From Thermoplasmatota archaeon (GTDB lineage Archaea; Thermoplasmatota; SW-10-69-26; JACQPN01; JAJPHT01): DNA of 64,000 nt. The position numbers and the translations under genes were made by a program. The notes below the pieces were generated by a model. It did no database searches. It saw only the letters and a list, made by a program, of their open reading frames with translations, and was not told where the DNA came from. Each line of letters begins with the position of its first letter. Within the stretch, counting starts at the first letter, position 1. The DNA is taken from positions 80-64,079 of the forward strand of contig DATLCC010000087.1 in the NCBI GenBank assembly GCA_035526585.1, written 5' to 3'. Below, piece by piece: positions 1,135 through 48,850 of this stretch.

Positions 1135-3429
1135 GTGGACGCTCGTCTTGCGTCGTGGTTGGCGCGTGCGCATGGGGCGCCTACGGAGGCGCAGGCGCGG
1201 ACGGCGGGGCCCTTGGCCGCGGGGCGGCATCTTCTGCTTTCGAGTCCGACGGGGTCGGGGAAGACGTTGGCGGCGTTCTTGCCGATCTTGTCGGCGCTTG
1301 CGGCGGAGCCGCTGGAGGAGCGGACGTATTGCGTGTATGTGTCGCCGTTGAAGGCGCTCGTGAATGACATGGCGCGGAACCTGGCGGGGCCGATCGAGGG
1401 GGCGCAGCTCCCGATCCGGGTGGCGGTGCGGACGGGGGATACGTCGGCGTATCGGCGGTCGCGGCAGCTCCGGCAGCCGCCGCACATCCTGATCACGACG
1501 CCGGAGTCGTTGGCGCTCCTTCTCACGAGCCCGAAGGCGCGGGGGGCGCTCCTTGGCGTGCGTTTCGTCGTGGTGGATGAGATCCACAGCATCGCCGAGT
1601 CGAAGCGGGGGACGCAGCTCGCGTTGACGTTGGAGCGTCTCGCTGCGTATGCGGGGGAGTTCCAGCGCGTGGGTCTTTCGGCGACGGTGCGTCCGTTGGC
1701 CGAGGTGGCGGCGTTCCTCGGCGGGGATCGTCCCGTGTTGATCGTGGAGGTGCAGCCCCGGGGCGCGCCGGAGCTGGACGTCGTCATGCCGGCGGCGGAT
1801 CCGTTGCTGTATCCGAAGGCGGCGTTGGAGACGAGCGTGCTCGGTCTCGTGGAGCGGGAGATGGCGCGCAGCCGCACGCTCCTTGTGTTCACGAACACGC
1901 GTGCTTCGGCGGAGGGGCTCGCGCGCCAGCTGAAGGCGCGTCATTCGCGCGAGGATGCGCCGCCGGAGGAGATCGAGCTGGTCCTGCCGCATCATGGGAG
2001 CCTCAGCCGCGAGACGAGGCATGATGTCGAGGCGCGCCTCAAGACGGGGCGCGTGCGCTGCGTCGTGGCGTCCAGCAGCCTGGAGCTTGGGATCCACGTG
2101 GACACGGTGGATCGCGTGCTTCTCCTGGACAATCCGAAGGGGTCCGCGCGCACGCTGCAGCGCATCGGGCGCAGCGGGCACGTGCCGGGGGCGACGGCCC
2201 GCGCGACGCTCGTGGTCGAGGATCCCTGCGAGCTCCCCGAGGCGCATGCGTTGGCGCGTCTCGCGCGCGAACGGCGCGTCGAGGACGTGCGCATCCCGTA
2301 CGGGCCGTTGGACGTCCTCATGCAGCATCTCGTGGCGTCGCGCTTCGAGCTGCCCCTCGGCCCGGATGCGCTCTTTGCGTTGACGCGCCGGGCGCACAGC
2401 TACAGGTCGCTTTCGCGGCCCGAGTTCGATGCGGTGTATGGCGACCTTCCGCGGATGCCGCGGTTCGTCTACATGCAGAACGCGGGCACGATCCCCGAGA
2501 CGAGCCTCCTCAAGGTCTTCCACAAAGACACGTACGTGGGCGAGATCGAGGAGGACTTCGCCTCCCGTCTGGAGGAGGACAGCCTTTTTCTCCTGGCGGG
2601 TCGCGCGTGGCGTTACGTGAGCGCCGGGTTGGCCCGCATCCATGTGGTGCCGGCGCGGGGCGACCCTTCCGTCCCGATCTGGCGGGGAGAAGGCCTCGGC
2701 GCGACCACACTCCTCGCCGAGGAGCGATGTTCCGTACTCCGTCACGCAAAAGACGATTATCCGTGGATGGAGTTGCAGGAACGCTGGGCAGGGCACCCAT
2801 GCGAAGGGGCGCTCGTCGAAAGCTTCCCTGCCGGCACGTGGGGGCGCGCGGTCGTCTTCCATGCGCACCTCGGCCGTCGCGCGAACAGCGCCCTCGCCTG
2901 CGCGCTCGCGCTCCGCGCCGAGAGCGACTTCACCGCCACGGATTGGGGGTTCGCGCTCCTGCGCGAGCGCGGCTGGAAGCCGTCGCGCACCGCGCTGCGC
3001 GCGCTCTTCGCCGACCCTCTCGAGCCTTCCGTCCGGAAGGCGATCCAGGAGAGCGATCTCCTGCGGCGTCGCTTCCGCCACGTCGCGATGCGCGCGCTCG
3101 TCGTCCGCCGGCGACAGGGTGAGGGGCTCGGTCGTCGCCAGAAGTGGGCGGATCGCCTGCTTCGCGACCTTCCCGCGGAGCATCCGCTCGTGCGCGAAGC
3201 ATACGCGGAATGCCTGCGCGACGCGATGGACGTCGACGCCGCCGATGCGTGGCGTGCTTCCGTCGCGGATGGCCGTCTTACCATGAAGCTCGTCGATTCG
3301 CGACCGTGCGGCTCGCCGCTCGCGGCGCGCATCCTCGCGGCCCCGGGCGCGTGGCGCCACGACGACCTGCGCGAGCACGCGGACGCGATCGACATGTACG
3401 GCGCGATCAGCGCGCGATCACGACGATGA
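1135..3429 (+). CDS. lhr: Lhr-family ATP-dependent DEAD/DEAH-box helicase
   Basis: 764-aa ORF with a GTG start. Motif I is SSPTGSGKTLAAFLP, motif II is VVVDEIHS, and an SAT-like LSATV is present. A helicase C domain (HHGSLSRETR..VVASSSLELGIH) and an Lhr-type C-terminal extension follow. Confidence 0.85.
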   Translation: MDARLASWLARAHGAPTEAQARTAGPLAAGRHLLLSSPTGSGKTLAAFLPILSALAAEPLEERTYCVYVSPLKALVNDMARNLAGPIEGAQLPIRVAVRTGDTSAYRRSRQLRQPPHILITTPESLALLLTSPKARGALLGVRFVVVDEIHSIAESKRGTQLALTLERLAAYAGEFQRVGLSATVRPLAEVAAFLGGDRPVLIVEVQPRGAPELDVVMPAADPLLYPKAALETSVLGLVEREMARSRTLLVFTNTRASAEGLARQLKARHSREDAPPEEIELVLPHHGSLSRETRHDVEARLKTGRVRCVVASSSLELGIHVDTVDRVLLLDNPKGSARTLQRIGRSGHVPGATARATLVVEDPCELPEAHALARLARERRVEDVRIPYGPLDVLMQHLVASRFELPLGPDALFALTRRAHSYRSLSRPEFDAVYGDLPRMPRFVYMQNAGTIPETSLLKVFHKDTYVGEIEEDFASRLEEDSLFLLAGRAWRYVSAGLARIHVVPARGDPSVPIWRGEGLGATTLLAEERCSVLRHAKDDYPWMELQERWAGHPCEGALVESFPAGTWGRAVVFHAHLGRRANSALACALALRAESDFTATDWGFALLRERGWKPSRTALRALFADPLEPSVRKAIQESDLLRRRFRHVAMRALVVRRRQGEGLGRRQKWADRLLRDLPAEHPLVREAYAECLRDAMDVDAADAWRASVADGRLTMKLVDSRPCGSPLAARILAAPGAWRHDDLREHADAIDMYGAISARSRR

Positions 3430-4450
3430 GCTCGCCGTCGTGCTTGATGACCTGCACGGTCGGCCCGACGCTCGCGAGCGCCGTGGGACGCAGCACGCTC
3501 ACGGTCTCGTAGCTCCACGGGTCCAGGAGCTGCAGCTCCTTCTCGTCCGAGCTCACGACGACCGCCTCGCGCGCGTTCGCGGGCGAGAGCACCTGCGCGC
3601 GCTCGACCTCGGCGCGCTCGACGTGGCGCAGGCGGCCGCCGTGGAGCTCGAGGAGCTGCACCGTCTTCTGGCCGATGCTGGACACGGTGAAGATCTCGTC
3701 GTCCAGGACGATGATATCGTTCGCGCGGTACTCGGGGAGCTTCACCGCGAACGTCAGACGGATGAGATCGAGGCCGTCCTTCTGGCCGACGGTCTTGGGA
3801 TGCTCGGAGGTCTTGCCGCCGAACTCGTTCGCGATCTGCTTCGCGAGCATGCGACCGCCGTTCGTCGTGCCCATGTAGATGTCGAGGCCTCGATCCACCT
3901 CTTCGTCCTTGAGCACGAACGCCTGGCGATCGCCTCCCTCGACGACGCGCTCGATGAAGCGGCTCGCGAGCGCCTTGATCGCGCGCATCTCGTCGCGGGG
4001 CATGTCACGGCGCGTCGCCCGCACCTGCACGATCGCCTCGTAGTAGCCGCCCTGCACGCGGCTGCACCGGACGCACGTCGCGTTCTTGATGCGGCTGCGC
4101 GTCTTGAGCTCGCTCTCGAAGGGGACGCCTTCGGCGACTCCTCCCGCGCGCACGTTCACGGTGAAGTTGCGCTCGTCCTCGGCCACGATGTCCATCTTGA
4201 GGCGCGCCTTCTCGACCGGCTTTGCGAACTCGATCGCCTCGCGGACCGCATCCTCGACGATGGGCTCCATCGCGCCATGCCCTTCGAGCCACAGCTCGCC
4301 GCGCTTGCGCGAATGGCAGTGCACGCACACCTCGACGTCGACGTGGTCGCGCACCTTCGCGAGCACGTTCTTTTCGAGGTAGCAGGAGGAGCACTCGCCT
4401 CTTCGAAGCTCGTCGAAGGGCGTCTCCTTCCCGCAGACGACGCAGAACAC
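3407..4450 (-). CDS. NMD3-family protein (archaeal homologue of the pre-60S export adaptor)
   Basis: 347 aa. The N-terminal Cys clusters CVVCG..CSSCY, CVHCH and CVRCS match the layout of the NMD3 domain. Confidence 0.8.
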   Translation of the reverse strand: MFCVVCGKETPFDELRRGECSSCYLEKNVLAKVRDHVDVEVCVHCHSRKRGELWLEGHGAMEPIVEDAVREAIEFAKPVEKARLKMDIVAEDERNFTVNVRAGGVAEGVPFESELKTRSRIKNATCVRCSRVQGGYYEAIVQVRATRRDMPRDEMRAIKALASRFIERVVEGGDRQAFVLKDEEVDRGLDIYMGTTNGGRMLAKQIANEFGGKTSEHPKTVGQKDGLDLIRLTFAVKLPEYRANDIIVLDDEIFTVSSIGQKTVQLLELHGGRLRHVERAEVERAQVLSPANAREAVVVSSDEKELQLLDPWSYETVSVLRPTALASVGPTVQVIKHDGELIVVIAR

Positions 4451-5024: not shown

Positions 5025-5756
5025 CTATTGCTGCTGCAAGACTTCCACGAGCCGGTCGCAGATCCATCGGTTCGCCGCGCGGCCCAGGGCGGCGCTTGCG
5101 AGGCTGGGGTCGCCCATGACGCCGCTCGGGAAACGCCGCTCGGGGTGTGCCTCCACGAGGAACTCGGGGAACTCCACCTTGTGCGCCGCGGACGTCCCCT
5201 GCACGAGCTCCGGGCGCAGCGCCATCATGCGGCTCGTCTCGATCGCGCCTGCGTGCCCATCCCATCGCGGCACGTCAACGCCGGCCGCGGCCTTCGCGTC
5301 GAAGCCTGGCAACAGTTCGTAGTCGCTGAGGACGAAGACGCGCATGTGCGGATGGCGCTCGACGACCTCCTCCGCCGCGAGCTTCAGCGCGCGCATGTGG
5401 GCGCCGCCTGCGTGGCCGGAGACGAATGCCACCGTTCGGATATCATGGCGCTGGCAGTCCAGCAGGATCTCCTTCGCGAGCGCGCGCACCGTGTCGAACG
5501 AGAGCGAGAAGGAGCCTGGGAAGTTCTTCGTGGAGCTGCAGTTGCCGTAGTTCAACGGAGGCGCGACGAGGCATCCGAGGCGTTCCGCAACCTCGTCGCA
5601 GGTCGCGACGGCCTGGATCGTGTCCGTGTCGAGGGGAAGGTGGGGCCCGTGCTCCTCCACGATGCCCACGGGGACAAGGAGCGGGGGCTTCGGGTCGAGC
5701 GCGGCGAACCCGGGGCTCGTGAGCTCTCCGAGGCGGAGGGGCATGGCGGGGCGCAC
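5025..5756 (-). CDS. Creatininase-family amidohydrolase
   Basis: 243 aa. It has the creatininase-fold metal-ligand pattern ([13 protein letters not shown] .. SGHAGG .. GHAGAIETS). Confidence 0.75.
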
Positions 5757-7425: not shown

Positions 7426-8264
7426 GCGAGATCGACCCGCGCCGCCTGCAGCGGCATGTGCGCGAGACCCTGCGCGCGCAATCGCAGCCGACGCGCGTCG
7501 GCCCGTTCACGTGCTTCTTCCATCCCGATGCGCCGTATGCGGAGCTCAACGTCGCCGTCCCGGACGATCCCGTCGAGGGGCGCCGCGTGCCCGTGCTCGG
7601 GCAGGAGGCCGCGGGCGTCGCGGCCGTGCCGGACGACGATCCCGAGTACGCCCTCATGATGGTCGAGGCGCAGTTCCGCGCGCGCAAGCGCGTCCCGCGC
7701 GTCGAGCTCGTGGCCGAATGCCACCCCTCCTGGCCGTCCATCCTCGAGAAGGCCGGGTTCCGCCAGGCGGCGAGCGTGCCGCTCCTCGTGAGCACGGAGG
7801 CGAGCTGGAGATCCGCGCCCGAGGTGCCCGGCATGCTCTTCGAGGCGGTCCTCCCGACGACGGCGTGGGGCACCGTGAAACGATATCTCGAGGTGCAGCG
7901 CGACGCCTTCGGCCTCGCGATGTCCATCCCGGACGAGGCGCCACACGATCCGTGGTCCGCGCTTGGCATCGGCGCGGGCGTCCTTGCGAGCATCGAGGGC
8001 GTCGCGGTGGGCGCGGGCGGCTTCACCGCGCCGCGCGAGGGGCTTTGCGAGATCCGCGGCCTCGCCGTCTCGCCGGACGCGCGACGCCGGGGCATCGGCA
8101 CCTTCCTCCTCTCCGCCCTCGCGCGCGTCGCGCACGATGGTGGCATCGAAGGGGTCGTCGCGACGCCCGACGGCCCGAGGACCGCGCGCATGGCGAAGCG
8201 CGCAGGCTACGTCCCTTCGGCGACGCTTCTCGCGTTCACAGCGGAAGACGCTGCTGCGCCGTGA
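7422..8264 (+). CDS. GNAT-family N-acetyltransferase
   Basis: This is the C-terminal part of track ORF 6186..8264. GTG 7422 overlaps the purK stop (GTGA). The acetyl-CoA motif is IRGLAVSPDARRRGIGTFLL. Confidence 0.7.
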   Translation: MSEIDPRRLQRHVRETLRAQSQPTRVGPFTCFFHPDAPYAELNVAVPDDPVEGRRVPVLGQEAAGVAAVPDDDPEYALMMVEAQFRARKRVPRVELVAECHPSWPSILEKAGFRQAASVPLLVSTEASWRSAPEVPGMLFEAVLPTTAWGTVKRYLEVQRDAFGLAMSIPDEAPHDPWSALGIGAGVLASIEGVAVGAGGFTAPREGLCEIRGLAVSPDARRRGIGTFLLSALARVAHDGGIEGVVATPDGPRTARMAKRAGYVPSATLLAFTAEDAAAP

Positions 8265-9117
8265 GCTTGGGCCGCGGCGCGGGCGCGGGGGCGCCGACGA
8301 GCTCGGCGAGGTCGATCGCGTTGGCGACGGCCTGCGCGCGCGGCGCGTTGTTGAAGTAGCATCGCACTTCGCGTCCCGCCCGCTGATGCTCGCGCACTCG
8401 CTCCGCGACGGGGGCGAGCTCCTCCCGGCGATACAGGTAGTCGTAGCGCGCGCCGTCGCGCAGCGCGCCCTCCTGCGCCCACGCGTCCGCGGCGCGCCCG
8501 TGGAAGCGCAGGTACGCGTGGCGCGCGCCAAGCGGGGCGCGCACGTCGGGCGCGCCGGGGACGTCGGCTTCCACGAGGCACACGTCGCCGGTCGTGAACA
8601 GCTTGTCGAGCATCGGGACGACGCAGCCGTTCTCTACCCAGGACGTGTGGCGCAGCTCGAGGGCGACGCGGCGCTCGGCGAGGGGCGTCAGGGCGTCGAG
8701 GAGCGCGGCCGCGTTCTCGGCCGAGGCGAGGAAGGTGGGCGGCAGCTGCACGAGGACGGCGCCCAGCAGCCCTTCGCCCGCGAGCGGGTCGAGGACTTCG
8801 CGATCGAAGCGCCCGACCCATTCCCGGGCGGCGTCGACGTCGCCCGTGGGGAGCGCTTCGTGCGTGATGGTGCGCGGGAGCTTCAGGCTGTACTCGAAGG
8901 GCGCGCGCTGCTGCAGGGCGACGCCGTCCCGCGACCAGTCGGCGACGAGCGCCTCGTCCGGGAAGCGGTCGAAGGAGGAGCTGAGCTCGACGCTGCGGAA
9001 GCGGGTCGCGTAATGGGCGAGCCACGCCTCGGGGCGGGCGCGCAGGTGGACCGGGTAGAACGGGCCGACCCAGTCGGGGTGGCTCCATCCTGTCGTGCCG
9101 ACGAGCGCCCGCGCCAT
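8236..9117 (-). CDS. DUF72-family protein
   Basis: The internal ATG at 9117 gives MARALVGTTGWSHPDWVGPFYP, the canonical DUF72 N-terminus. The upstream part of the track ORF is Arg/Gly-rich junk. Confidence 0.8.
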   Translation of the reverse strand: MARALVGTTGWSHPDWVGPFYPVHLRARPEAWLAHYATRFRSVELSSSFDRFPDEALVADWSRDGVALQQRAPFEYSLKLPRTITHEALPTGDVDAAREWVGRFDREVLDPLAGEGLLGAVLVQLPPTFLASAENAAALLDALTPLAERRVALELRHTSWVENGCVVPMLDKLFTTGDVCLVEADVPGAPDVRAPLGARHAYLRFHGRAADAWAQEGALRDGARYDYLYRREELAPVAERVREHQRAGREVRCYFNNAPRAQAVANAIDLAELVGAPAPAPRPKLTAQQRLPL

Positions 9118-40657: not shown

Positions 40658-41716
40658 ATGCGCATCCGGCTGCTGCTGGTCCTTGCCCTCGTAGCCGGCT
40701 GCGTCACGCCCGACGCGCACTCGCCCACCCCCGAGACGAACGTCACGAGCCCCACGGGCGACGCGAGCATGCCGAACGGAACGATGTCGATGCCCCCGAT
40801 GGGGGAGCGCATGGCGGTCGCGACGGAGCCGTTCCTGCTCATGAGCGACCACACGATGACGGTCGTGCCGCGCGACGCGCAGCCGATCCCGGAGGCGACG
40901 GTCGCCGAGACGGCGCGCGCGACGGCCTTCTACGAATCGTTCGCGAGCGGGCTCGAGCTCACGCCGTGGACGGGTCCCCCCTCGCGCAGCGCGTGGGAGA
41001 CGACCGCGGACCTCGACATCACCGTGAAGTTCAAGACGAACGCTCCTGCCGTCGGAACGAACCCGAGCCCGGCGGGCTTTCCGGCCGTCGGCGGCTGGTT
41101 CGGCACGACCGAGCGCGCGGCGTTCTTCGTCCTTGCGACGGACGCGCCGCAGACGCTCGAAGCCAACAAGGTCTACACGGTGCATCTCGTCGCGACGCCG
41201 CCGAAGGGCGGATTCTTCCTGCGGGAGGGAGAGCATCTCGCGCTCACGACCTTCCTCTCCTACCAGGTCGCGGATGGGAGCGCGCCCATGTACGTCGTGG
41301 GCGGCGACGAGCCCGCGGGCTTCGCGCTCGTCCACGAGCACTTCAACCTCACGGCGCCCACCGCGACCGTGCTCTACGACAAGAGCGGCGAGGTGGGGCC
41401 CAACCCCGGCTTCACGGGCGACATGCAGCAGACCCCGGTCGACGTGCCGTTCAAGGTGCCGCCGGACGCGCTCTTCGTCGTGCTCGAGATCACGGGCGCG
41501 CCGAAGGCCGGGACGCGGGTCGACCTGGATGTGGGCGCGCGCACGGCAGGCGGCGACGTCATCGCCTCGGGCTCGAGCCCCGAGGCGACGGAGATGGTCG
41601 TGCTCGGCCCGGGGAACCTTGCGGCGTACGGGCGCGACCTCGTCGCGCGCGTCACGAGCTCGTCGAACCCGTCGGGCGCGACGTTCGCGCTGAAGATCAC
41701 GTCCTACGCACCCTAG
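40658..41716 (+). CDS. Lipoprotein of unknown function
   Basis: 352 aa. The N-terminus is MRIRLLLVLALVAGC (lipobox). A Thr/Pro-rich linker and a beta-rich body follow. It lies 8 nt after the preceding ORF. Confidence 0.65.
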   Translation: MRIRLLLVLALVAGCVTPDAHSPTPETNVTSPTGDASMPNGTMSMPPMGERMAVATEPFLLMSDHTMTVVPRDAQPIPEATVAETARATAFYESFASGLELTPWTGPPSRSAWETTADLDITVKFKTNAPAVGTNPSPAGFPAVGGWFGTTERAAFFVLATDAPQTLEANKVYTVHLVATPPKGGFFLREGEHLALTTFLSYQVADGSAPMYVVGGDEPAGFALVHEHFNLTAPTATVLYDKSGEVGPNPGFTGDMQQTPVDVPFKVPPDALFVVLEITGAPKAGTRVDLDVGARTAGGDVIASGSSPEATEMVVLGPGNLAAYGRDLVARVTSSSNPSGATFALKITSYAP

Positions 41717-42657
41717 AATCCTGGGAGCGCGCGCGTGGTCCCGCGTCGGAACGCGACGGCCTGGAACGCGCTTCCGAGGCGCGCGGGGCTCGTGAGCTCG
41801 TGGTCGTCCACGTCGAGCGCGGTGAGGAGATCCTCCTGCGTCACGAGCCCCAGCTCCTCCAAGCCGGCGTCGGTGGCGGCGCGCGCGACCGCGCTCCAAT
41901 CGACGTCGGCCGTCATGTCCTGCTCGCCCACGCTCGCGTACCAGTCGTGGTTCTGGCCGTGCGCGCGGTACGCGGCGAGCGTACCGTTGGGACGCGTCTG
42001 CGCGTAGAGCGCGGGAGCGGGGTCGCCGTAGTCGATGAAGAGGAGGAACCCAGGGTCCGCGAGGCGCGCGGCGGCTCGCACGAACGCGGGGAGGTCGGGC
42101 GCGACGTCGCAGATCTGTCCGCGGGCGGGCGCGACGCCAGGGAACCGGTCGTCGCACGGGAGCAGCCGGTCGCGCAGGTGGCCCGACGCATCGAGGTCGA
42201 CGTACACCTCGAAGTCCGAGCGCGGCCCGCCGACGATGCGCCGGACCGGCAGCGCATCGAGGACCTCGTTGCCGAACACGAGCGTCGGCGCGCCCGTTGG
42301 GATCTCCTCGATGCGCGCCACCGCGCGCGCGCCCGCGCTCGCCTGCTGCGCGCGCAGCCCCGCGCTCGCGTCGACCGTCCAATATTCGACGTCGGGGAGA
42401 GCCTCGATCACGTGGCGCGCGAGCGCGCCGGTGCCGGCCCCGATCTCGACCACGCGCGGCATGCCCGAGGCGGCCACGAGGCGCGCGATGGCATCGCGGA
42501 ACGCAGGGTACCGCACGCTCGTGGAGAAGTCGCCGTCGGGCCCGATGGCGGGGCCGCGTCCGTAGTACGCGTCCAGGCAGCGCGCCATGTAGCGGTCGAA
42601 ACGCATGGGGCCCTCGCGGCGGATCTCGGCCTTGATCTCCTCCACGAGCCCGGTCAA
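41713..42657 (-). CDS. MidA / NDUFAF7-like (DUF185) SAM-dependent methyltransferase, paralogue 2
   Basis: This is the C-terminal part of track ORF 41713..43944. TTG 42657 overlaps the upstream stop (TTGA), and GTG 42645 is an alternative start. LTGLVEEIKAEIRREGPMRFDRYMARCLDAYYGRGPAIGPDGDFSTS aligns with the N-terminus of paralogue 1. Motif I is VVEIGAGTGALA. Confidence 0.7.
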   Translation of the reverse strand: MTGLVEEIKAEIRREGPMRFDRYMARCLDAYYGRGPAIGPDGDFSTSVRYPAFRDAIARLVAASGMPRVVEIGAGTGALARHVIEALPDVEYWTVDASAGLRAQQASAGARAVARIEEIPTGAPTLVFGNEVLDALPVRRIVGGPRSDFEVYVDLDASGHLRDRLLPCDDRFPGVAPARGQICDVAPDLPAFVRAAARLADPGFLLFIDYGDPAPALYAQTRPNGTLAAYRAHGQNHDWYASVGEQDMTADVDWSAVARAATDAGLEELGLVTQEDLLTALDVDDHELTSPARLGSAFQAVAFRRGTTRALPGF

Positions 42658-43664
42658 CGACGGCTCGCCCCGGGATAGAGATCGGCACGGAACCCTGGCA
42701 GGGGCGGTTCCTTCGCGACGCCGCGTCCGAGGCAGAGCACGCGGAAGCGCTCGCCCATCGCGGTGGGCATGAGAAGGCTCTTGCCCGCGGCGTACGCGTC
42801 GTGGTCGCCTCGCCCCATCGCGCTCATCATGTCCTCGACGAGGCCGAGGTCCGCGAGGAACTCGCCTTGGCTGCGGGCGCCCAGGACCTCGAAGCCGCGG
42901 GCGAGCGCGAGCCGTTCGATCGCGGCGAAGTCCACGTCGGCCGTGATGTCCTGCTCTCCGGGCGCCCGAAGCGGCGAGGTCACCTGGTGCTTCGAGAAGC
43001 CGCGCAGCGTGCCGCCGGGGCGAGGCGGGCCGGCCGCGTAGTCGAGGAAGAGCGCGATGCAGCGCGGCGCGGCGACCGCCATCGCGTCGAGGAGCGCGCC
43101 CGCCTCGACGCACACCTCGGCGACGTCGCCCTCCTGCAGGTCCGAAGGGACGCTGGCGGGTCCCAGCGTGAGGGGCCCGGTCGTCTCGACGAACTCTTCG
43201 TCCCGCCACACGACGTAGCCTTCGCGCGCGCCCTCGGGGGTCATGTGGATCCGGTGGACGGGCAGCGCGTCGAGGAGCTCGTTCGCGACGAAGATCGTGG
43301 GCCGGGGGCGCAGCTCCCCGAGCGATGACGCGACCTGGAGGCCGCGCGCCTCCTGCTTCTTCGCAAGGCCCACCGAGGGCTCGACCACCGTGATGTCGAC
43401 TCCCAGCTGCGAGGCGAGGTCGCCGCGGCCGCCTCCGAGCTCGACGACGCGCGCGATGCCGTCCATGCGCGCGAGTGCGCCTTTCACGAAGCGCGACAAG
43501 GCGAGCGGGAAGAGCGAGACGTTCGAGGCGGTGTAGAAGTCGCCCTCCGCGCCGATGTCGGGCCCCCTCGCGTAGTACGCCTGCGCCGCGGCGGCCATGA
43601 AGTCGCGCACCGTCATCGGCCCGTCCTTCTCGATGCGCGCGCGCAGCTCGTCCGCGAGGGGCAC
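42654..43664 (-). CDS. MidA / NDUFAF7-like (DUF185) SAM-dependent methyltransferase, paralogue 1
   Basis: 336 aa with ..GPMTVRDFMAAAAQAYYARGPDIGAEGDFYTASNVS.., VVELGGGRGDLA and ANELLDALPVHR. Confidence 0.75.
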   Translation of the reverse strand: MPLADELRARIEKDGPMTVRDFMAAAAQAYYARGPDIGAEGDFYTASNVSLFPLALSRFVKGALARMDGIARVVELGGGRGDLASQLGVDITVVEPSVGLAKKQEARGLQVASSLGELRPRPTIFVANELLDALPVHRIHMTPEGAREGYVVWRDEEFVETTGPLTLGPASVPSDLQEGDVAEVCVEAGALLDAMAVAAPRCIALFLDYAAGPPRPGGTLRGFSKHQVTSPLRAPGEQDITADVDFAAIERLALARGFEVLGARSQGEFLADLGLVEDMMSAMGRGDHDAYAAGKSLLMPTAMGERFRVLCLGRGVAKEPPLPGFRADLYPGASRR

Positions 43665-43691
43665 GCGCCGCGCATGCGGGGGGCGGCATTT

Positions 43692-44264
43692 CTATTCGAC
43701 GGGCTCGTCCAGCTCCCCGGCTTCCAGCGCGCCCGTGTCCCACTCGTCGAGGAGCCGGTTGGGCTCGGCCAGGATCGTGGGGTCGAGGAGCATCTCGAGG
43801 CGCTGCGCCCCGCGGCGCTCCTCCGCCTCGAGCCCGGCGAGCGTCTCGCGCAGCAGGAGGATCAGCTTGCGACGCGCGGTGGGCTCGTGTCCGTACTCGC
43901 TCGACCACTTGCGCCAGGCCGGGCGCCGGTGCGCGAGCTTCCACTTCGTTCCTTCCATCACGGTCTGATAGCTGTTCGAGTCGAGCTTGCGCACGCGCTG
44001 GTGGGCGAGGACGTACCAGTGGAACATCGTCCCTTCGGGCGCACCGCTGCCGGCGGGAGCGCTCGTGCGGCGGCGCTTGGTCGCGCGGAAGCTGAAGTCC
44101 CAGCGGTCGGGGGCGACCTTGCGCTCGCGCCAGCGGCCCTCGGGATAGCCCCAGTCGTGGGCGCCGCCGACGGGCATGCCCGTGTAGGTCCGACCGTCGA
44201 AGACTTTCGTCGCGTCGTAGCCCACGAGCACTCTTCGCGCGTCCTCGCCTTCAAAGCGCGCCAA
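43692..44264 (-). CDS. Hypothetical protein (Trp/Arg-rich, acidic C-terminal tail)
   Basis: 190 aa. The frame has a good GC3 pattern. It overlaps the upstream SMUG1-like gene by 14 nt. No recognisable motif. Confidence 0.5.
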   Translation of the reverse strand: MARFEGEDARRVLVGYDATKVFDGRTYTGMPVGGAHDWGYPEGRWRERKVAPDRWDFSFRATKRRRTSAPAGSGAPEGTMFHWYVLAHQRVRKLDSNSYQTVMEGTKWKLAHRRPAWRKWSSEYGHEPTARRKLILLLRETLAGLEAEERRGAQRLEMLLDPTILAEPNRLLDEWDTGALEAGELDEPVE

Positions 44265-44949
44265 GGCCCCCGAGCTGCTCCTCTGCCTGCCTGGCCCACC
44301 CCTTGTTGGCGACGGGGGACGCGGGGCTCGGATGGAGCACGCGGCCGATCCTCGCGCGGTCCCCGACCACGCGGCGTGCCCGCTCCTCGGCGAACCGGCC
44401 GACGCCCACGACGATCTCCGGCGCGAGCGCGCGCACGACGGCGTCGAGGTGCGCGTCGCACGCGGTCTCGAGCGCTTCGACCGCTTTCGCGCCCAGCTGC
44501 GGCGGCGTCAGGTTCTTGCCGGCCTCGTCGAAGAAAAGGAGCGGGCAGTAGTTGACGATGAAGAAGCGCTCGAAGAACGCGGGCGCGGCGCCGTAGCGCC
44601 CTTGCGCCCAGCCATAGAGGCGCGAACCGGAGGGCTCGCGGCGCGCGCAGGCGAAGCCGGTGACGGGGCGCTTGGGGTGCGCTCGGGCGGGCTGCGCGTG
44701 CTCGCCGGAGATCCCCATCCAGTCGCGCACGTAGACGACGTCGCCGAAGGGGACTCCCGTCTGGCCCATGCCCCACGGACCCGGGTTCATGCCGACGAGG
44801 AGCGCGCGGCGCTTCCCCTTCCCGAACGTCTCGGCATACTTCGCGTGCGCGCCCCAGGCGTAGCGCAGCGGGTTGTAGACGTAGGGCGCGAGATGGTCGA
44901 GCGCGTCGCAACGGTCGCGAAGCGTCTTCGCCGCCTCGAGCACGGACAT
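44251..44949 (-). CDS. SMUG1-family (family 3) uracil-DNA glycosylase, copy A
   Basis: 232 aa. GMNPGPWGMGQTGVPFG and HPSPASPVANKGW match the two SMUG1 signature motifs (GMNPGPFGMAQTGVPFG / HPSPRNPQANKGW). Confidence 0.8.
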   Translation of the reverse strand: MSVLEAAKTLRDRCDALDHLAPYVYNPLRYAWGAHAKYAETFGKGKRRALLVGMNPGPWGMGQTGVPFGDVVYVRDWMGISGEHAQPARAHPKRPVTGFACARREPSGSRLYGWAQGRYGAAPAFFERFFIVNYCPLLFFDEAGKNLTPPQLGAKAVEALETACDAHLDAVVRALAPEIVVGVGRFAEERARRVVGDRARIGRVLHPSPASPVANKGWARQAEEQLGGLGAL

Positions 44950-44973
44950 GCGACGGGCAAGCGCCTGACCGCT

Positions 44974-45654
44974 CTAAAGGATGGCGTCGAGATCCTCGCC
45001 CCATCCGGCGTTGTTGGCCGGGTTCGCGGGCGACGGGTGACGGACGGCATGGATCGCGGCAGAGGGCGCGATGCGCCGCACCTGCGCCTCGACGAACTGG
45101 CCCATCGGGACGAGGACGCAGGGCGCGAGCGCGTCCAACGCATCCTCGAGCCAGGCGTCGCACGCCGGCTGCAGGCGCGCGAGCGCGTGCTTCGCGAGCG
45201 ACGGCAGCGGAATGTTGCGCCCCTGTGCATCGAGGAGAAGGAGCGGGCAATAATTGGTCACGAAGCAGCGCTCGAAGAACGCCTTCGCGGTGCCGAATCG
45301 CCGCTTGGCCCAGCCGTAGAATTTGCCGCCGCTGGGATCGCTGCGGGTGGAATCGAAGCCGAGGATCGGCCGCTTCGGATGCGTCCTCAGAGGTGGCGCC
45401 ACGTGGCCCCCGATGCCCATCCACCCGTGCGCCCACGCGACGTCCGCGAAGGGGACGCCCGTCTGCGCCATGCCCCACGGACCCGGGTTCATGCCGACGA
45501 ACAAGGCGCGCCCGCGGGCGTCGCCGTAGGCGCGGAGGTACTTCTCGTGCGGATCCCAGGCGTAGCGGAGCGGGTGGTAGGCGTGCGCGACGCCGGGGAG
45601 CTCCACCTCGTCCAGCGCGTCCCTCAGGCGCGCTGCTGCCTCCACGAGCCGCAT
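44974..45654 (-). CDS. SMUG1-family (family 3) uracil-DNA glycosylase, copy B
   Basis: 226 aa with GMNPGPWGMAQTGVPFA and HPSPANPANNAGW. It is a tandem paralogue of copy A. Confidence 0.8.
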   Translation of the reverse strand: MRLVEAAARLRDALDEVELPGVAHAYHPLRYAWDPHEKYLRAYGDARGRALFVGMNPGPWGMAQTGVPFADVAWAHGWMGIGGHVAPPLRTHPKRPILGFDSTRSDPSGGKFYGWAKRRFGTAKAFFERCFVTNYCPLLLLDAQGRNIPLPSLAKHALARLQPACDAWLEDALDALAPCVLVPMGQFVEAQVRRIAPSAAIHAVRHPSPANPANNAGWGEDLDAIL

Positions 45655-45699
45655 GGCTTGCGGTGGGCCCCTCGTGCCAAGAGGTTGGCGGCTGCCTCT

Positions 45700-48600
45700 T
45701 CACCGAGCCCGGGCCGTGGGCGCCTTCTTTCCGCTCGAAGTCGGCGCGGCAGCGCCGACTTCGCGAGCGAGGAGCGGTTTGAGGAACTGGCCGGTGTAGC
45801 TTTCTGGGACCGCGGCGACTTGTTCGGGCGTGCCTTCGGCGACGATGCGGCCCCCTTTTTCGCCGCCTTCGGGACCGAGGTCGACGAGCCAGTCGGCGTG
45901 TTTGATGACGTCGAGGTTGTGCTCGATGACGAGGACCGTGTTGCCGGTGTCCGCAAGGCGGTCGAGGACGCCGAGGAGGCGCTCGATGTCGGCGAAGTGC
46001 AGCCCTGTCGTGGGCTCGTCGAGGATGTAGAGCGTCTTTCCGGTGGCGCGCTTCTGGAGCTCGGTCGCGAGCTTCACGCGCTGGGCTTCGCCGCCGGAAA
46101 GGGTGGTGCTGCTCTGCCCCAGGCGCATGTAGCCGAGGCCGACGTCGAGAAGCGTCTGGAGGGCGCGCTTCATCGCGGGCACGGCCTCGAAGAACGTGTG
46201 CGCTTCCTCGACCGTCATGTCGAGGACCTCCTTGATCGTCTTGCCCTTGTAGCGCACCTGGAGGGTCTCGCGGTTGTAGCGCGCGCCTTTGCATTCTTCG
46301 CAGGGGACGTACACGTCGGCGAGGAAGTGCATCTCGATCTTCACGGTGCCGTCGCCCTCGCACGCCTCGCAGCGGCCGCCTTTCACGTTGAAGCTGAACC
46401 TCCCCGGCTGGTAGCCGCGCGACTTCGCGTCGGGCGTCTGGGCGTAGAGGTCGCGGATGTTCGTGAAGAGGCCCGTGTAGGTCGCCGGGTTCGAGCGCGG
46501 CGTGCGGCCGATGGGCGACTGGTCGATGATGATGACCTTGTCGATCTGCTCGATCCCCTCGAGCTTCGCGTGCTTCCCGGGCTGCTCCATCGCGCCGTTG
46601 AGCTTGCGAGCGAGCGCCTTGTAGAGCACGTCGTTGATGAGCGTGGACTTTCCGGATCCCGACACGCCGGTGACGCAGACGAACTTGCCGAGCGGAAAGC
46701 GCGCGTCGACGTTCTTGAGGTTGTTCTCGCGAGCGTTCTTCACGACGAGCGCCTTGCCGGTGCCTTCGCGCCGAACCGAGGGGATCGAGATCTGGCGCTT
46801 GCCGCTCATGAACTGCCCCGTGATGCTCTTCGGGTTGCGCAGGATCTGCGCGGGCGTCCCTTCGGCGATGATCTGCCCGCCGTGCTCCCCGGCACCGGGC
46901 CCCAGGTCCACGACCCAGTCCGCCGCGCGGATCATCTCCTCGTCGTGCTCGACGACAAGGAGCGTGTTGCCAAGCTCGCGCAGCCCCTTCAGCGACTCGA
47001 TGAGACGCTGGTTGTCGCGCTGGTGAAGGCCGATCGAGGGCTCGTCCAGGATGTAGAGCACGCCGACGAGCCCGGAGCCTATCTGCGTGGCGAGGCGGAT
47101 GCGCTGCCCTTCGCCGCCCGAGAGCGTCGCGCTGCTGCGATCCAGCGTCAGGTAGTCCAGCCCGACGTCGATCATGAACTTGAGCCGCTCGCGGATCTCC
47201 TTCACGACCTCGTGCGCGATGTGCTTCGAGCGGTCGTCGAGCGACTGCTCGTACTCGAGGAACCACCCGTAGAGACGCCCGACGGGCATGGACGAGACGT
47301 CGGCGATGCTCTTCCCGGCCACGAGGACATGCAGGATCTCAGGCTTCAACCGCTGCCCCTTGCACGCCTTGCAAGGCTTCGATGCCATGAGCCCCTGGAT
47401 CGACTCGCGCTTCGACTCGCTCTCCGTCTCCTTGAAGTAGCGCTGGAGGCGAGGCACGATGCCTTCGAACATGTCGTACCCCTCCCAGATGCGGCCGCTC
47501 GACATCTCGTACTTCACCTTGATGCGGCGATCCGTCCCGTAGAGGATGACCTCCTTCGCGCTGTCGCTGAGCGACTTCCACGGCGTGGCCATGCTGAACT
47601 TGAACGCGCGCGCCAGCTGCTCCAGCTCGTAGAGTACCCACGGCATCGAGCGCTTCACCGTCCCATGCAGGCAGCCATCGTGGAGCGACGCCTCCGCGTC
47701 GGCGATGATCACGTCGGGATCGACCTCGAGCGAGAAGCCCAGGCCCACGCAATCCGGACACGCCCCGTGCGGCGCGTTGAACGAGAACGATCGCGGAGCG
47801 AGCTCAGCCATCGAGAATCCGCATTTCGTGCACGCGAACTTCTCGCTGTAGACGTCCAGCTGCGGCTCGACGTCCTTCAAGACCCGCATCTCGCCCTCGC
47901 CCAGCTTCAGGCACTGCTCGACGGAATCGGTGAGGCGCTGGCGCGCGTCCGCCGACCGGTCCGCCTTGCGGACCACGATGCGGTCGACGACGATCTCGAT
48001 CGTGTGCTTCTCGTAGCGCGCGAGCTTCCAGTCGTCGTCCACGGTGCCCAGCGCGCCGTTCACCCGCACGCGCTCGAACCCTTGCGACTTGTACTCGGCG
48101 AAATTCTTCTTGTACTCGCCCTTGCGGTCCTTCACGACCGGCGCGAGGAGATGCAGCTTCGTCCCCTCGGGGTAGGCGAGCAGCCGCTCGACGATCCCGT
48201 CGGGCGTCTGCCCCTTGATCGGCGTGCCATCCTTCGGACAGTGCGGCTGGCCGAGGTTCGCGTAGAGGACGCGAAGGTAGTCGAAGATCTCCGTGATCGT
48301 GCCGACGGTGGAGCGAGGATTCTTCGACGTCGTCTTCTGGTCGATCGAGATCGCGGGGGAGAGGCCTTCGATGCTGTCGCAGTCGGGCTTCTCCATCTGG
48401 CCGAGGAACTGGCGCGCGTAGGCAGAGAGCGACTCGACGTAACGCCGCTGGCCTTCCGCGTAGAGCGTATCGAAGGCCAGGCTCGACTTGCCCGACCCCG
48501 AGAGGCCGGTGATGACCACGAGCTTGTCTCGGGGGAGCGTCACGTCCACGTTCTTGAGGTTGTGCTCGCGCGCACCCCTTACGATGATCTCGTCTCTCAC
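45700..48600 (-). CDS. uvrA: Excinuclease ABC subunit A
   Basis: 966 aa with a GTG start. It has two ABC ATPase modules ([14 protein letters not shown]; [10 protein letters not shown]) and Zn-finger cysteines. Confidence 0.97.
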
Positions 48601-48796
48601 CTAGAATCGGCCGCCCATCCCTCCGTATCGTATTTAGCGGTTTGTCGGTGGCGACCGAATGGACGGGACTCGCCTCGGGGAAGGGGCCCATCCGGACCCG
48701 TCCGGATCGAGGGCCGAAGGCCCGAGAGAGGACGAATCGCAGCGAGAGACCAGTTCTTCGTCCGACCCCAGATCCGGCGGCGGCGGTGGGGCGGCT

Positions 48797-48850
48797 GGAT
48801 CCACCGGGCGCCAGGTGGATCCAGGTGGATCCAGGTGGATCCAGGTGGCT
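48797..48850. repeat. Phased 10-bp tandem array: GGATCCACC-gggcg-(CCAGGTGGAT)x3-CCAGGTGGCT
   Basis: Read directly from the sequence. It uses the same 10-mer as the array at 63366-63415 but in reverse orientation. It abuts the stop of the asparaginase-II-like gene and lies about 200-250 nt upstream of the uvrA start. Confidence 0.9.

What the first reader, a model, noticed from the sequence alone, without database searches (positions are those of the whole stretch)
41713..48600. Co-directional six-gene block: uvrA, two SMUG1-like glycosylases, an unknown 190-aa protein and two MidA-like methyltransferases
All six genes are on the minus strand. The gaps or overlaps, in order, are 45 nt, 24 nt, a 14-nt overlap, 27 nt and a TTGA overlap, which is compatible with a single transcription unit downstream of uvrA. 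NER damage recognition, base-excision glycosylases and DUF185 (NDUFAF7/MidA-type) methyltransferases are not a combination I recognise. MidA-type enzymes are known as protein arginine methyltransferases. Both accessory families are duplicated in tandem, and an uncharacterised Trp/Arg-rich protein sits in the middle. This could be a repair or modification module, for example handling uracil or oxidised pyrimidines with methylation-dependent control. Its function is unknown.
Basis: inference. Interest (0 to 1): 0.6.

Follow-up and report, generated by a model that had tools for sequence, protein, structure and literature searches.

The report
Archaeal uvrA–SMUG1 repair cluster with add-ons
The six same-strand genes are real, but they are a lineage-specific build-up around an older uvrA–SMUG1 DNA-repair gene pair in soil Thermoplasmatota archaea, not a widely conserved six-part repair machine.

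Summary
uvrA, two SMUG1 glycosylases, a conserved unknown protein (X) and two MidA/NDUFAF7-type methyltransferases lie head to tail on the minus strand with the stated spacings. One detail differs: X probably starts at GTG 44225, giving 177 aa and a 25-nt gap.

The adjacency is not a one-off, but it is layered.
- uvrA→SMUG1(→uvrC) is shared by all three SMUG1-bearing families of this archaeal class. In one genome uvrA and SMUG1 share a GTGA stop/start overlap.
- SMUG1→MidA→MidA is confined to the window's genus-level clade.
- The second SMUG1 (an in-lineage duplicate) and X occur only in one sub-lineage.

Outside the class nothing is linked.
- SMUG1 occurs in 104 of 401 genomes of the phylum. 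MidA was absent from 32 of 35 of these that were checked, and uvrA lay apart in 30 of 30.
- Of 80 bacterial SMUG1 loci, none has MidA or X nearby and one has uvrA.
- X homologues elsewhere have variable neighbours.

Most likely this is a co-expressed NER/BER cluster that picked up a protein-methyltransferase pair and an orphan basic protein. Nothing shows that the glycosylases depend on methylation.

X is the real unknown. It has 40 invariant residues, no Pfam family and no fold match.

The parts
48629..48650 (-). Candidate archaeal promoter of uvrA: a purine-rich BRE-like stretch plus TAAATACGAT, with the TATA box centred about 33 nt before the GTG start.
   Evidence: The sequence is. The same AAATACGAT element lies at the same distance upstream of uvrA in G001 and in metagenome contig L042, and ATATATACGAG is found there in G011. 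Its function is inferred, not shown.
45700..48600 (-). uvrA, the bacterial-type nucleotide-excision-repair damage sensor (966 aa).
   Evidence: NCBIfam NF001503 and TIGR00630 equivalogs at 1528 and 1456 bits. Pfam UvrA_inter, UvrA_DNA-bind and ABC_tran.
44974..45654 (-). SMUG_a, the divergent SMUG1 (UDG family 3) paralogue (226 aa).
   Evidence: E 3e-53 to Geobacter SMUG1 5h93. It keeps GMNPGPWGM, GVPF, NYCPL and HPSP. It forms a long-branched clade (100/99) sister to the genus's SMUG_b clade. It is found only in the window, G004, G001 and L039.
44251..44949 (-). SMUG_b, the canonical SMUG1 orthologue (232 aa).
   Evidence: E 1.5e-66 to 5h93. It is orthologous to the single SMUG1 of G002 (60% identity, against 46% to SMUG_a) and of G011.
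43692..44225 (-). X, a 177-aa member of an unannotated family. It has a basic all-beta core (pI 10.2), a long helix and an acidic tail (pI 4.05). The ORF could start at TTG 44264, but the family alignment favours GTG 44225.
   Evidence: 155 homologues at E <= 1e-3 and 536 cluster representatives. 40 invariant residues. AF2 mean pLDDT 76, core 85-92. No PDB or viral fold match. No Pfam hit in any of 32 members. Composition.
43689..43696 (-). AATAGAAA, an AT-rich box overlapping the X stop codon and centred about 28 nt before the MidA_a GTG. It is a candidate internal promoter for a leaderless MidA transcript.
   Evidence: It is one of only four 8-mers with at least 7 A/T in 7.6 kb of the sense strand, and there are 56 such windows in the whole 64 kb. 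Its function is inferred.
42654..43664 (-). MidA_a, a Methyltransf_28 (MidA/NDUFAF7, COG1565) SAM-dependent methyltransferase (336 aa).
   Evidence: PF02636 at 120 bits. PDB 4f3n, 1zkd and 5ztz. Motifs ELGGGRG, NELLDALP, DY and QDITADVDF are present.
41713..42657 (-). MidA_b, an in-paralogue of MidA_a (314 aa, 33-36% identical). Its TTG start overlaps the MidA_a stop (TTGA).
   Evidence: PF02636 at 120 bits. PDB 4f3n at E 1.4e-27. The a-b tandem with a 4-nt overlap recurs in L040 and L041. The single MidA of sister genera is about equally distant from a and b.

Best explanation
The block is an evolutionary accretion around an older DNA-repair gene pair.

1. Core. A bacterial-type uvrA is followed on the same strand by a SMUG1 (family 3) uracil-DNA glycosylase. 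This arrangement (uvrA→SMUG1→uvrC) is inherited across this class of Thermoplasmatota and is probably transcribed from a conserved promoter in front of uvrA. The cell would then make its NER damage sensor together with a BER glycosylase for deaminated or oxidised pyrimidines (U, 5-hmU, 5-fU, possibly xanthine).
2. Methyltransferase pair. In the window's genus-level clade, a translationally coupled pair of MidA/NDUFAF7-type in-paralogues came to lie directly after SMUG1. These are most likely protein (arginine) methyltransferases, possibly a heteromer. Their only known substrate type, the HRGxE arginine of complex I subunit NuoD, is present in this genome.
3. Sub-lineage additions. In one sub-lineage SMUG1 was duplicated in tandem: SMUG_b stays canonical and SMUG_a evolves fast but keeps the catalytic motifs. 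A basic 177-aa protein from a widespread orphan family was inserted between SMUG1 and MidA.

Shown: the gene identities, the layered synteny, the duplication history and the absence of linkage elsewhere. Inferred: co-transcription, substrates, and any contact between the products.
For: Gene identities.

uvrA-SMUG1 linkage across the class:
- The four f6 genomes read as loci (G015-G018) have uvrA→SMUG1→uvrC on one strand. In G020 uvrA lies upstream on the same contig and strand.
- G011 (family f4) has uvrA, SMUG1 and uvrC tightly packed, with SMUG1's GTG overlapping the uvrA TGA.
- uvrA lies within 5 kb upstream on the same strand in 9 of the 11 species genomes of the class that carry SMUG1.

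SMUG1→MidA_a→MidA_b in the genus:
- G002, G003 (also fetched as L041) and metagenome contig L042 have this order, with gaps of 0-36 nt or overlaps.
- The window, G004 and L039 have SMUG_a, SMUG_b and X followed by MidA_a. G001 has the triad only.

Duplication history:
- SMUG tree: the archaeal class forms one clade (98/99). SMUG_a is sister to the genus's SMUG_b clade.
- The MidA duplication is genus-level.

Promoter and terminator signals:
- Conserved AAATACGAT upstream of uvrA.
- No T5 run and no AT-rich box in the 45- and 24-nt gaps.

MidA substrate:
- MidA is found in all 21 genomes of the class.
- G000's NuoD carries HRGVE.
- The equivalent arginine is dimethylated in Paracoccus complex I but not in E. 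coli (PMC8042128).

Background: archaeal UvrABC was acquired from bacteria, and SMUG1 has a wide substrate range (PMC8307549).
Against: - There is no transcript evidence.
- In two genus genomes (G002, G004) uvrA is on another contig and a divergent gene lies upstream of SMUG1.
- Relatives tolerate insertions of unrelated genes between uvrA and SMUG1, and between X and MidA. Co-regulation is therefore not strict.
- An AT-rich box at -28 of MidA_a suggests the methyltransferases may have their own promoter.
- Conservation inside one class could be inherited gene order without selection.
- The NuoD-methylase role for the MidA proteins is an analogy and was not tested.
Confidence: 0.6

Rival explanations
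1. True functional module. SMUG1, the MidA pair and X (where present) work together. For example, MidA-type arginine methylation could control the glycosylases, UvrA or the DNA-binding protein X. Alternatively, the methyltransferases could act on a nucleic-acid substrate that SMUG1 polices.
For: - SMUG1 and MidA_a have overlapping or near-overlapping stop and start codons in G002, G003 and L042.
- Within the class, genomes with SMUG1 have 2-3 MidA paralogues in 10 of 11 cases, and genomes without a detected SMUG1 have one in 7 of 9 cases.
- In G011, MidA lies 3.2 kb from SMUG1.
- G001 has two X paralogues flanking the SMUG pair.
- One bacterial X homologue is fused to Rho_N/SAP-type nucleic-acid-binding motifs.
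Against: - 32 of 35 SMUG1-bearing genomes from other Thermoplasmatota families have no MidA at all.
- None of 80 bacterial SMUG1 loci has MidA or X within 6 kb.
- In family f6 the MidA genes lie on other contigs.
- X homologues elsewhere sit beside redox and other unrelated genes.
- The paralogue-count correlation rests on about two independent clades.
- L039 and G004 have a membrane-protein gene or a hairpin plus T-run between X and MidA.
Confidence: 0.15
2. Mere inherited neighbourhood. The genes are adjacent only because close relatives share gene order. They are transcribed separately and have unrelated roles.
For: - Every form of linkage is confined to one class of 21 species genomes.
- Intervening genes vary, and some are on the other strand.
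- There is a candidate internal promoter before MidA_a.
- Leaderless archaeal promoters can lie inside upstream coding sequence, so short gaps do not prove an operon (established knowledge).
Against: - Flanking genes are thoroughly rearranged among the same genomes, yet uvrA→SMUG1 order and strand persist across three families. Amino-acid identity of SMUG1 between them is only 46-51%.
- uvrA and SMUG1 share a GTGA stop/start overlap in G011, and SMUG1 and MidA share an ATGA overlap in L042.
- No AT-rich box lies in the uvrA-SMUG_a or SMUG_a-SMUG_b gaps.
Confidence: 0.2
3. A defence or DNA-modification island: glycosylases attack modified foreign DNA, and the methyltransferases protect the cell's own DNA.
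For: Glycosylase-based and methyltransferase-based anti-phage systems exist (established knowledge). MidA_b gave a weak PADLOC hit to mad2 (E 5e-5) over the SAM-binding motif only.
Against: - No other PADLOC or PHROG hit.
- Both SMUGs belong to a vertically inherited clade orthologous to the class's single housekeeping SMUG1.
- MidA is present in all 21 genomes of the class.
- GC content is the same as the flanks, and there are no mobile-element genes in the block.
Confidence: 0.03

Closest known systems
SMUG1 (UDG superfamily family 3), e.g. Geobacter metallireducens SMUG1 (PDB 5h93) and vertebrate SMUG1 (1oe4)
   Same: Both paralogues align end to end with solved SMUG1 structures. Both keep the GMNPG, GVPF, N-x-CPL and HPSP motifs.
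   Different: These are archaeal and tandemly duplicated. SMUG_a has clade-specific changes (GVPFAD, LLLLD, a shortened PANNAGWG loop, no C-terminal helix) and a long branch. The genes are embedded in a uvrA(-uvrC) cluster, which 79 of 80 bacterial SMUG1 loci are not.
Bacterial-type UvrABC nucleotide excision repair genes in mesophilic archaea
   Same: uvrA is a full-length equivalog. uvrC is on contig C35. The system is regarded as acquired from bacteria (PMC8307549).
   Different: In this class a BER glycosylase gene sits between uvrA and uvrC, or directly after uvrA. I found no description of this in the papers searched.
MidA / NDUFAF7 (Pfam Methyltransf_28, COG1565), the protein arginine methyltransferase of complex I subunit NDUFS2
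   Same: Strong Pfam match and conserved family motifs in both paralogues. The genome encodes NuoD with the HRGxE target motif.
   Different: There are two translationally coupled in-paralogues instead of one gene. They lie next to repair genes rather than nuo genes. They are only distantly related to the characterised eukaryotic enzyme (E 1e-8 and 3e-4 to Dictyostelium MidA 5ztz). No prokaryotic member had been characterised in the papers I searched.
No known family for X; the nearest descriptions are purely architectural (basic beta-rich core plus acidic tail, as in SSB-like or chromatin proteins)
   Same: Basic core (pI 10.2) and acidic C-terminal tail (pI 4.05). One bacterial homologue carries Rho_N/SAP-type motifs.
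   Different: No sequence or fold similarity to any solved or viral predicted structure: best Foldseek E 0.68 and 0.17. No OB-fold was detected. Four invariant His plus invariant Asp and Glu could equally indicate an enzyme.

Membership tests
SMUG1 (UDG family 3) | Full-length sequence similarity to experimentally solved SMUG1 enzymes | tested here: met
   SMUG_a E 3.3e-53 and SMUG_b E 1.5e-66 to 5h93. Both also match human and Xenopus SMUG1.
SMUG1 (UDG family 3) | Motif 1 G-M-N-P-G (catalytic Asn) and motif 2 H-P-S-P (catalytic His), plus the stacking Phe (GVPF) and base-recognition Asn (N-x-CPL) | tested here: met
   All are invariant in the 14-sequence alignment that includes both window paralogues and Geobacter SMUG1.
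SMUG1 (UDG family 3) | Glycosylase activity on U, 5-hmU or 5-fU in DNA | not testable with these tools
   Needs enzyme assays.
MidA/NDUFAF7 (Methyltransf_28) | Pfam PF02636 match above the gathering score | tested here: met
   120.4 and 119.6 bits against a cut-off of 23.3.
MidA/NDUFAF7 (Methyltransf_28) | SAM-binding motif I (E-x-G-x-G-x-G) and family motifs N-E-x-x-D-A-x-P, D-Y and Q-D-[IM]-T-A-x-V-[DN]-[FW] | tested here: met
   MidA_a has ELGGGRG, NELLDALP, LDYA and QDITADVDF. MidA_b has EIGAGTG, NEVLDALP, IDYG and QDMTADVDW. These were read and aligned to 4f3n.
MidA/NDUFAF7 (Methyltransf_28) | Symmetric dimethylation of the HRGxE arginine of NDUFS2/NuoD | not testable with these tools
   Only the presence of the substrate was shown: G000 NuoD has HRGVE.
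UvrA | Equivalog-level match, two ABC ATPase modules, and the UvrB-interaction and DNA-binding insertion domains | tested here: met
   NF001503 at 1528 bits against 1147. Pfam UvrA_inter, UvrA_DNA-bind and ABC_tran.
Single operon (one transcription unit) | One promoter, no internal terminator, transcripts spanning the junctions | tested here: inconclusive
   There is a conserved TATA-like element before uvrA and no T5 run in the block. However, a TATA-like box lies at -28 of MidA_a. Read mapping was unavailable.
Conserved multi-gene functional module | The same gene combination recurs in phylogenetically distant genomes | tested here: not met
   The combination is confined to one class. MidA was absent from 32 of 35 SMUG1 genomes elsewhere in the phylum. 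uvrA was unlinked in 30 of 30. None of 80 bacterial SMUG1 loci has MidA or X.
Known anti-phage defence systems (PADLOC) | Match to a defence-system protein model | tested here: not met
   Only a motif-level hit of MidA_b to mad2 (E 5e-5) and a noise-level hit of X (E 0.07).

The most novel reading that the evidence does not exclude
X is a new nucleic-acid-binding or damage-processing protein with a previously unseen fold. It was recruited into a BER operon together with a neofunctionalised SMUG1 copy. In the same lineage, the MidA-type methyltransferase pair methylates a repair or chromatin protein (SMUG1, UvrA or X) instead of, or as well as, complex I. That would be a methylation-controlled BER/NER module in archaea.
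Probability: 0.1. Interest if true: 0.7.

Novelty: new variant of a known kind. Interest (0 to 1): 0.38.

Why it matters
- It shows that in one class of soil Thermoplasmatota a base-excision glycosylase gene is built into the horizontally acquired UvrABC gene set, in places with overlapping stop and start codons. This is a concrete lead for NER/BER cross-talk in archaea.
- It offers a natural pair of SMUG1 paralogues for studying how substrate specificity diverges.
- It points to prokaryotic MidA/NDUFAF7 paralogues. I found no substrate study for them, and a tandem, translationally coupled pair suggests a heteromeric enzyme.
- It flags an unannotated, strongly conserved protein family (X). The family occurs in archaea, in some bacteria and in a fungus, with no detectable fold relative.
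- None of this overturns current understanding. The value lies in hypotheses and targets rather than a new mechanism.

Tried and rejected
- Defence-system reading: PADLOC and PHROG scans were empty.
- Identifying X by sequence. All of these were empty or noise: Pfam, NCBIfam, PHROGs, PADLOC, a Pfam scan of all 32 aligned members at E <= 1, and a PDB profile search.
- Identifying X by fold: the AF2 model searched against PDB and BFVD gave best E values of 0.68 and 0.17, which are not usable.
- Inferring X's function from gene context: five unrelated neighbourhoods have no common theme beyond some redox enzymes (nitroreductase, aldo-keto reductase, AhpC).
- The idea that uvrA and SMUG1 were co-transferred from bacteria as a unit: only 1 of 80 bacterial SMUG1 loci has uvrA nearby. 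This was not pursued further.
- The idea that SMUG_a was acquired horizontally: rejected, because it nests inside the archaeal class clade as sister to SMUG_b.
- I first thought that loci from other genomes could not be read in the Python box. They are stored in multi-record files. The full synteny map was then made by tblastn.

Full report
**Observation**

The window is uniformly GC-rich, about 70%. On the minus strand lie six consecutive ORFs at exactly the reported coordinates. Their identities hold:
- uvrA is an equivalog-level match.
- Both 226- and 232-aa proteins are genuine SMUG1-type (family 3) uracil-DNA glycosylases. Their best solved relatives are Geobacter and vertebrate SMUG1. 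All catalytic motifs are intact.
- Both 3' genes are Methyltransf_28 (MidA/NDUFAF7) proteins with the family motifs.

The recomputed spacings are 45, 24, -14, 27 and -4 nt. The middle ORF has no family in Pfam, NCBIfam, PHROGs or PADLOC. Its homologues begin at a position equivalent to GTG 44225. The protein is therefore probably 177 aa, and the '14-nt overlap' is a 25-nt gap.

**Organism and comparison set**

Source names of close homologues place the organism in Thermoplasmatota. The held genome (G000) is a 2.66-Mb MAG, and its class has only 21 species genomes.

**Is the adjacency conserved?**

I located each gene family in all 21 genomes of the class, in 401 genomes of the phylum, in four metagenome contigs and in 80 bacterial SMUG1 loci. 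The result is layered.

1. uvrA and SMUG1.
   - In the four family-f6 genomes read as loci (G015-G018), uvrA, SMUG1 and uvrC follow each other on one strand within 7-12 kb. In G020, uvrA lies 3.7 kb upstream of SMUG1 on the same contig and strand.
   - In G011 (family f4) they are packed as uvrA-SMUG1-uvrC-citrate synthase. SMUG1's GTG overlaps the uvrA TGA.
   - In the window's genus, uvrA lies 45 nt (window), 274 nt (L042), 3.2 kb (G001) or 4.4 kb (G003) upstream of SMUG1.
   - In total, 9 of the 11 species genomes of the class with SMUG1 have uvrA upstream on the same strand within 5 kb.
   - Elsewhere in the phylum SMUG1 is common (104 of 401 genomes). In 30 of 30 genomes checked, uvrA lies on another contig or hundreds of kb away.
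   - Only 1 of 80 bacterial SMUG1 loci has uvrA within 6 kb.
2. SMUG1 and MidA.
   - SMUG1-MidA_a-MidA_b, with tiny gaps or overlaps, is found in G002, G003 (also fetched as L041) and L042. L042 has a short-chain dehydrogenase gene between the two MidA genes.
   - The window, G004 and L039 have X between SMUG1 and MidA_a.
   - In G001 the MidA pair has moved away. In f6 the MidA genes are on other contigs. In G011 one MidA lies 3.2 kb away and is convergent.
   - MidA is present in all 21 genomes of the class. It is absent from 32 of 35 SMUG1 genomes elsewhere in the phylum and from all 80 bacterial SMUG1 loci.
3. SMUG_a and X.
   - These occur together only in the window, G004, G001 and L039.
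   - The SMUG tree puts all SMUGs of the class in one clade (98/99). SMUG_a forms a long-branched sister group to the genus's SMUG_b clade. It is therefore an in-lineage duplicate, not an import.
   - SMUG_b is the orthologue of the single-copy genes.

**X**

X belongs to a sizeable family: 155 homologues in the indexed search and 536 cluster representatives in the exhaustive one. It is found in Thermoplasmatota and Methanomicrobiales. It also occurs in Halomonas, fused to Rho_N/SAP-type motifs, and in a fungus, between a DinB-family domain and a RING finger.

Forty positions are invariant among 32 diverse archaeal members, including four His, several Trp and an A-P-x-G-S-G loop. The AF2 model is confident in the core (pLDDT 85-92). 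It shows short strands, two 16-residue strands forming a long hairpin, and a long helix. Neither the PDB nor the viral structure library gives a usable match. The core is basic (pI 10.2) and the genus-specific tail is acidic (pI 4.05).

Elsewhere X sits beside unrelated genes such as nitroreductase, aldo-keto reductase, AhpC and a tricorn-like protease. Only 13 of 41 relatives have it, several of them without SMUG1 or MidA. Its function stays open. A nucleic-acid-binding role is a weak inference from charge and one fusion.

**Transcription signals**

- About 33 nt before the uvrA GTG lies TAAATACGAT, preceded by an A-rich stretch.
- AAATACGAT recurs at the same distance in G001 and L042, and ATATATACGAG occurs there in G011. 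This fits a conserved archaeal TATA/BRE promoter with a very short leader.
- The 45-nt and 24-nt gaps contain no AT-rich box. The whole block has no run of five T on the sense strand.
- An AT-rich octamer (AATAGAAA) overlaps the X stop codon and is centred 28 nt before the MidA_a GTG. Such octamers are rare here: 56 windows in 64 kb.
- In G004 the same gap holds a hairpin repeat followed by a T-run, and in L039 a membrane-protein gene.

I therefore consider uvrA-SMUG_a-SMUG_b(-X) the likely core transcript, with MidA_a-MidA_b possibly also expressed from an internal promoter.

**What the MidA pair may do**

- The one characterised activity of this family is symmetric dimethylation of the HRGxE arginine of NDUFS2 (PMC3829151).
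- That arginine is also dimethylated in Paracoccus complex I but not in E. coli (PMC8042128).
- G000 encodes NuoD with HRGVE. The Pfam family also rings in Caulobacter, Synechococcus and Haloferax among the control genomes.
- A housekeeping NuoD methylase would explain why MidA is in every genome of the class.
- The a/b duplication is genus-level. The single MidA of sister genera is roughly equidistant from a and b, slightly nearer a.
- The conserved 4-nt overlap between a and b (window, L040, L041) suggests a heteromer.
- Within the class, genomes with SMUG1 tend to have extra MidA paralogues. This rests on about two clades and is not independent evidence.

**Verdict**

The block is real and is not a chance juxtaposition in the narrow sense. 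It is best read as accretion around an older uvrA-SMUG1(-uvrC) repair cluster, not as a conserved six-component system. The combination 'glycosylase + MidA methyltransferase + X' fails the test of recurring in distant lineages.

The parts worth follow-up are:
- the class-wide embedding of SMUG1 in the Uvr gene set;
- the diverging SMUG1 pair;
- the coupled MidA pair;
- the orphan X family.

I rate interest at 0.38 and classify it as a new variant of a known kind (a repair gene cluster).

Noticed in passing
window 48810-48850: A 10-nt unit (CCACCTGGAT, sense of the minus strand) is repeated four times in tandem directly after the stop of the asparaginase-II-like gene, about 210-250 nt upstream of the uvrA start.
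   Followed up: no
window 43692-44225 and loci L015-L030, L044, L045: X defines an unannotated, strongly conserved family found in archaea, bacteria and a fungus. It has 40 invariant residues, no Pfam family and no fold match. Two fusions were seen: Halomonas WP_197450064.1 is X plus two Rho_N/SAP motifs, and Bifiguratus adelaidae OZJ01952.1 is DinB-family + X + RING.
   Followed up: partly
L014 (G001:C81) 3034-3561(-) and 5069-5476(+): G001 has three X paralogues. Two flank the SMUG pair in opposite orientations, and the third is on contig C51.
   Followed up: no
window 52122-~54150 (-); genome contig C35:9275-11062: uvrB lies about 3.5 kb upstream of uvrA on the same strand. It is separated from uvrA by an asparaginase-II-like gene, an ArsR regulator and a metallophosphoesterase. 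uvrC is on another contig in this assembly, although it is linked to uvrA and SMUG1 in relatives. The asparaginase-II gene upstream of uvrA is also seen in L042.
   Followed up: partly
window 41713-41716: The 3' end of MidA_b overlaps by 4 nt the 3' end of a convergent lipoprotein-like ORF (40658-41716, +; it has an N-terminal signal peptide with Cys). No oligo-T terminator lies between them.
   Followed up: no
L013 (G004:C206) about 2430-2560: The gap between X and MidA_a in G004 holds a long GC-rich hairpin (GCCGCGAAGACGCGAAGACGCG...CGCGTCTTCGCGGC) followed by CTTTTCT.
   Followed up: no
L031 (G002:C44) 8024-8698 (+): A DUF488 protein (DUF488-N3 subclade models) is encoded divergently, directly upstream of SMUG1 in G002.
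   Followed up: no
genome contig C42:~2100-3230: NuoD (Complex1_49kDa) of this archaeon carries the HRGVE motif. In mitochondrial and Paracoccus complex I, the arginine of this motif is symmetrically dimethylated by NDUFAF7-type enzymes.
   Followed up: partly
phylum genomes of family f11 (e.g. G025:C8, G176:C1, G184:C1): The uvrA match is split into two adjacent pieces (query residues about 5-440 and 450-950) about 100 nt apart. Many also have one in-frame stop read through. This could be an insertion, a split gene or a recoded stop.
   Followed up: no
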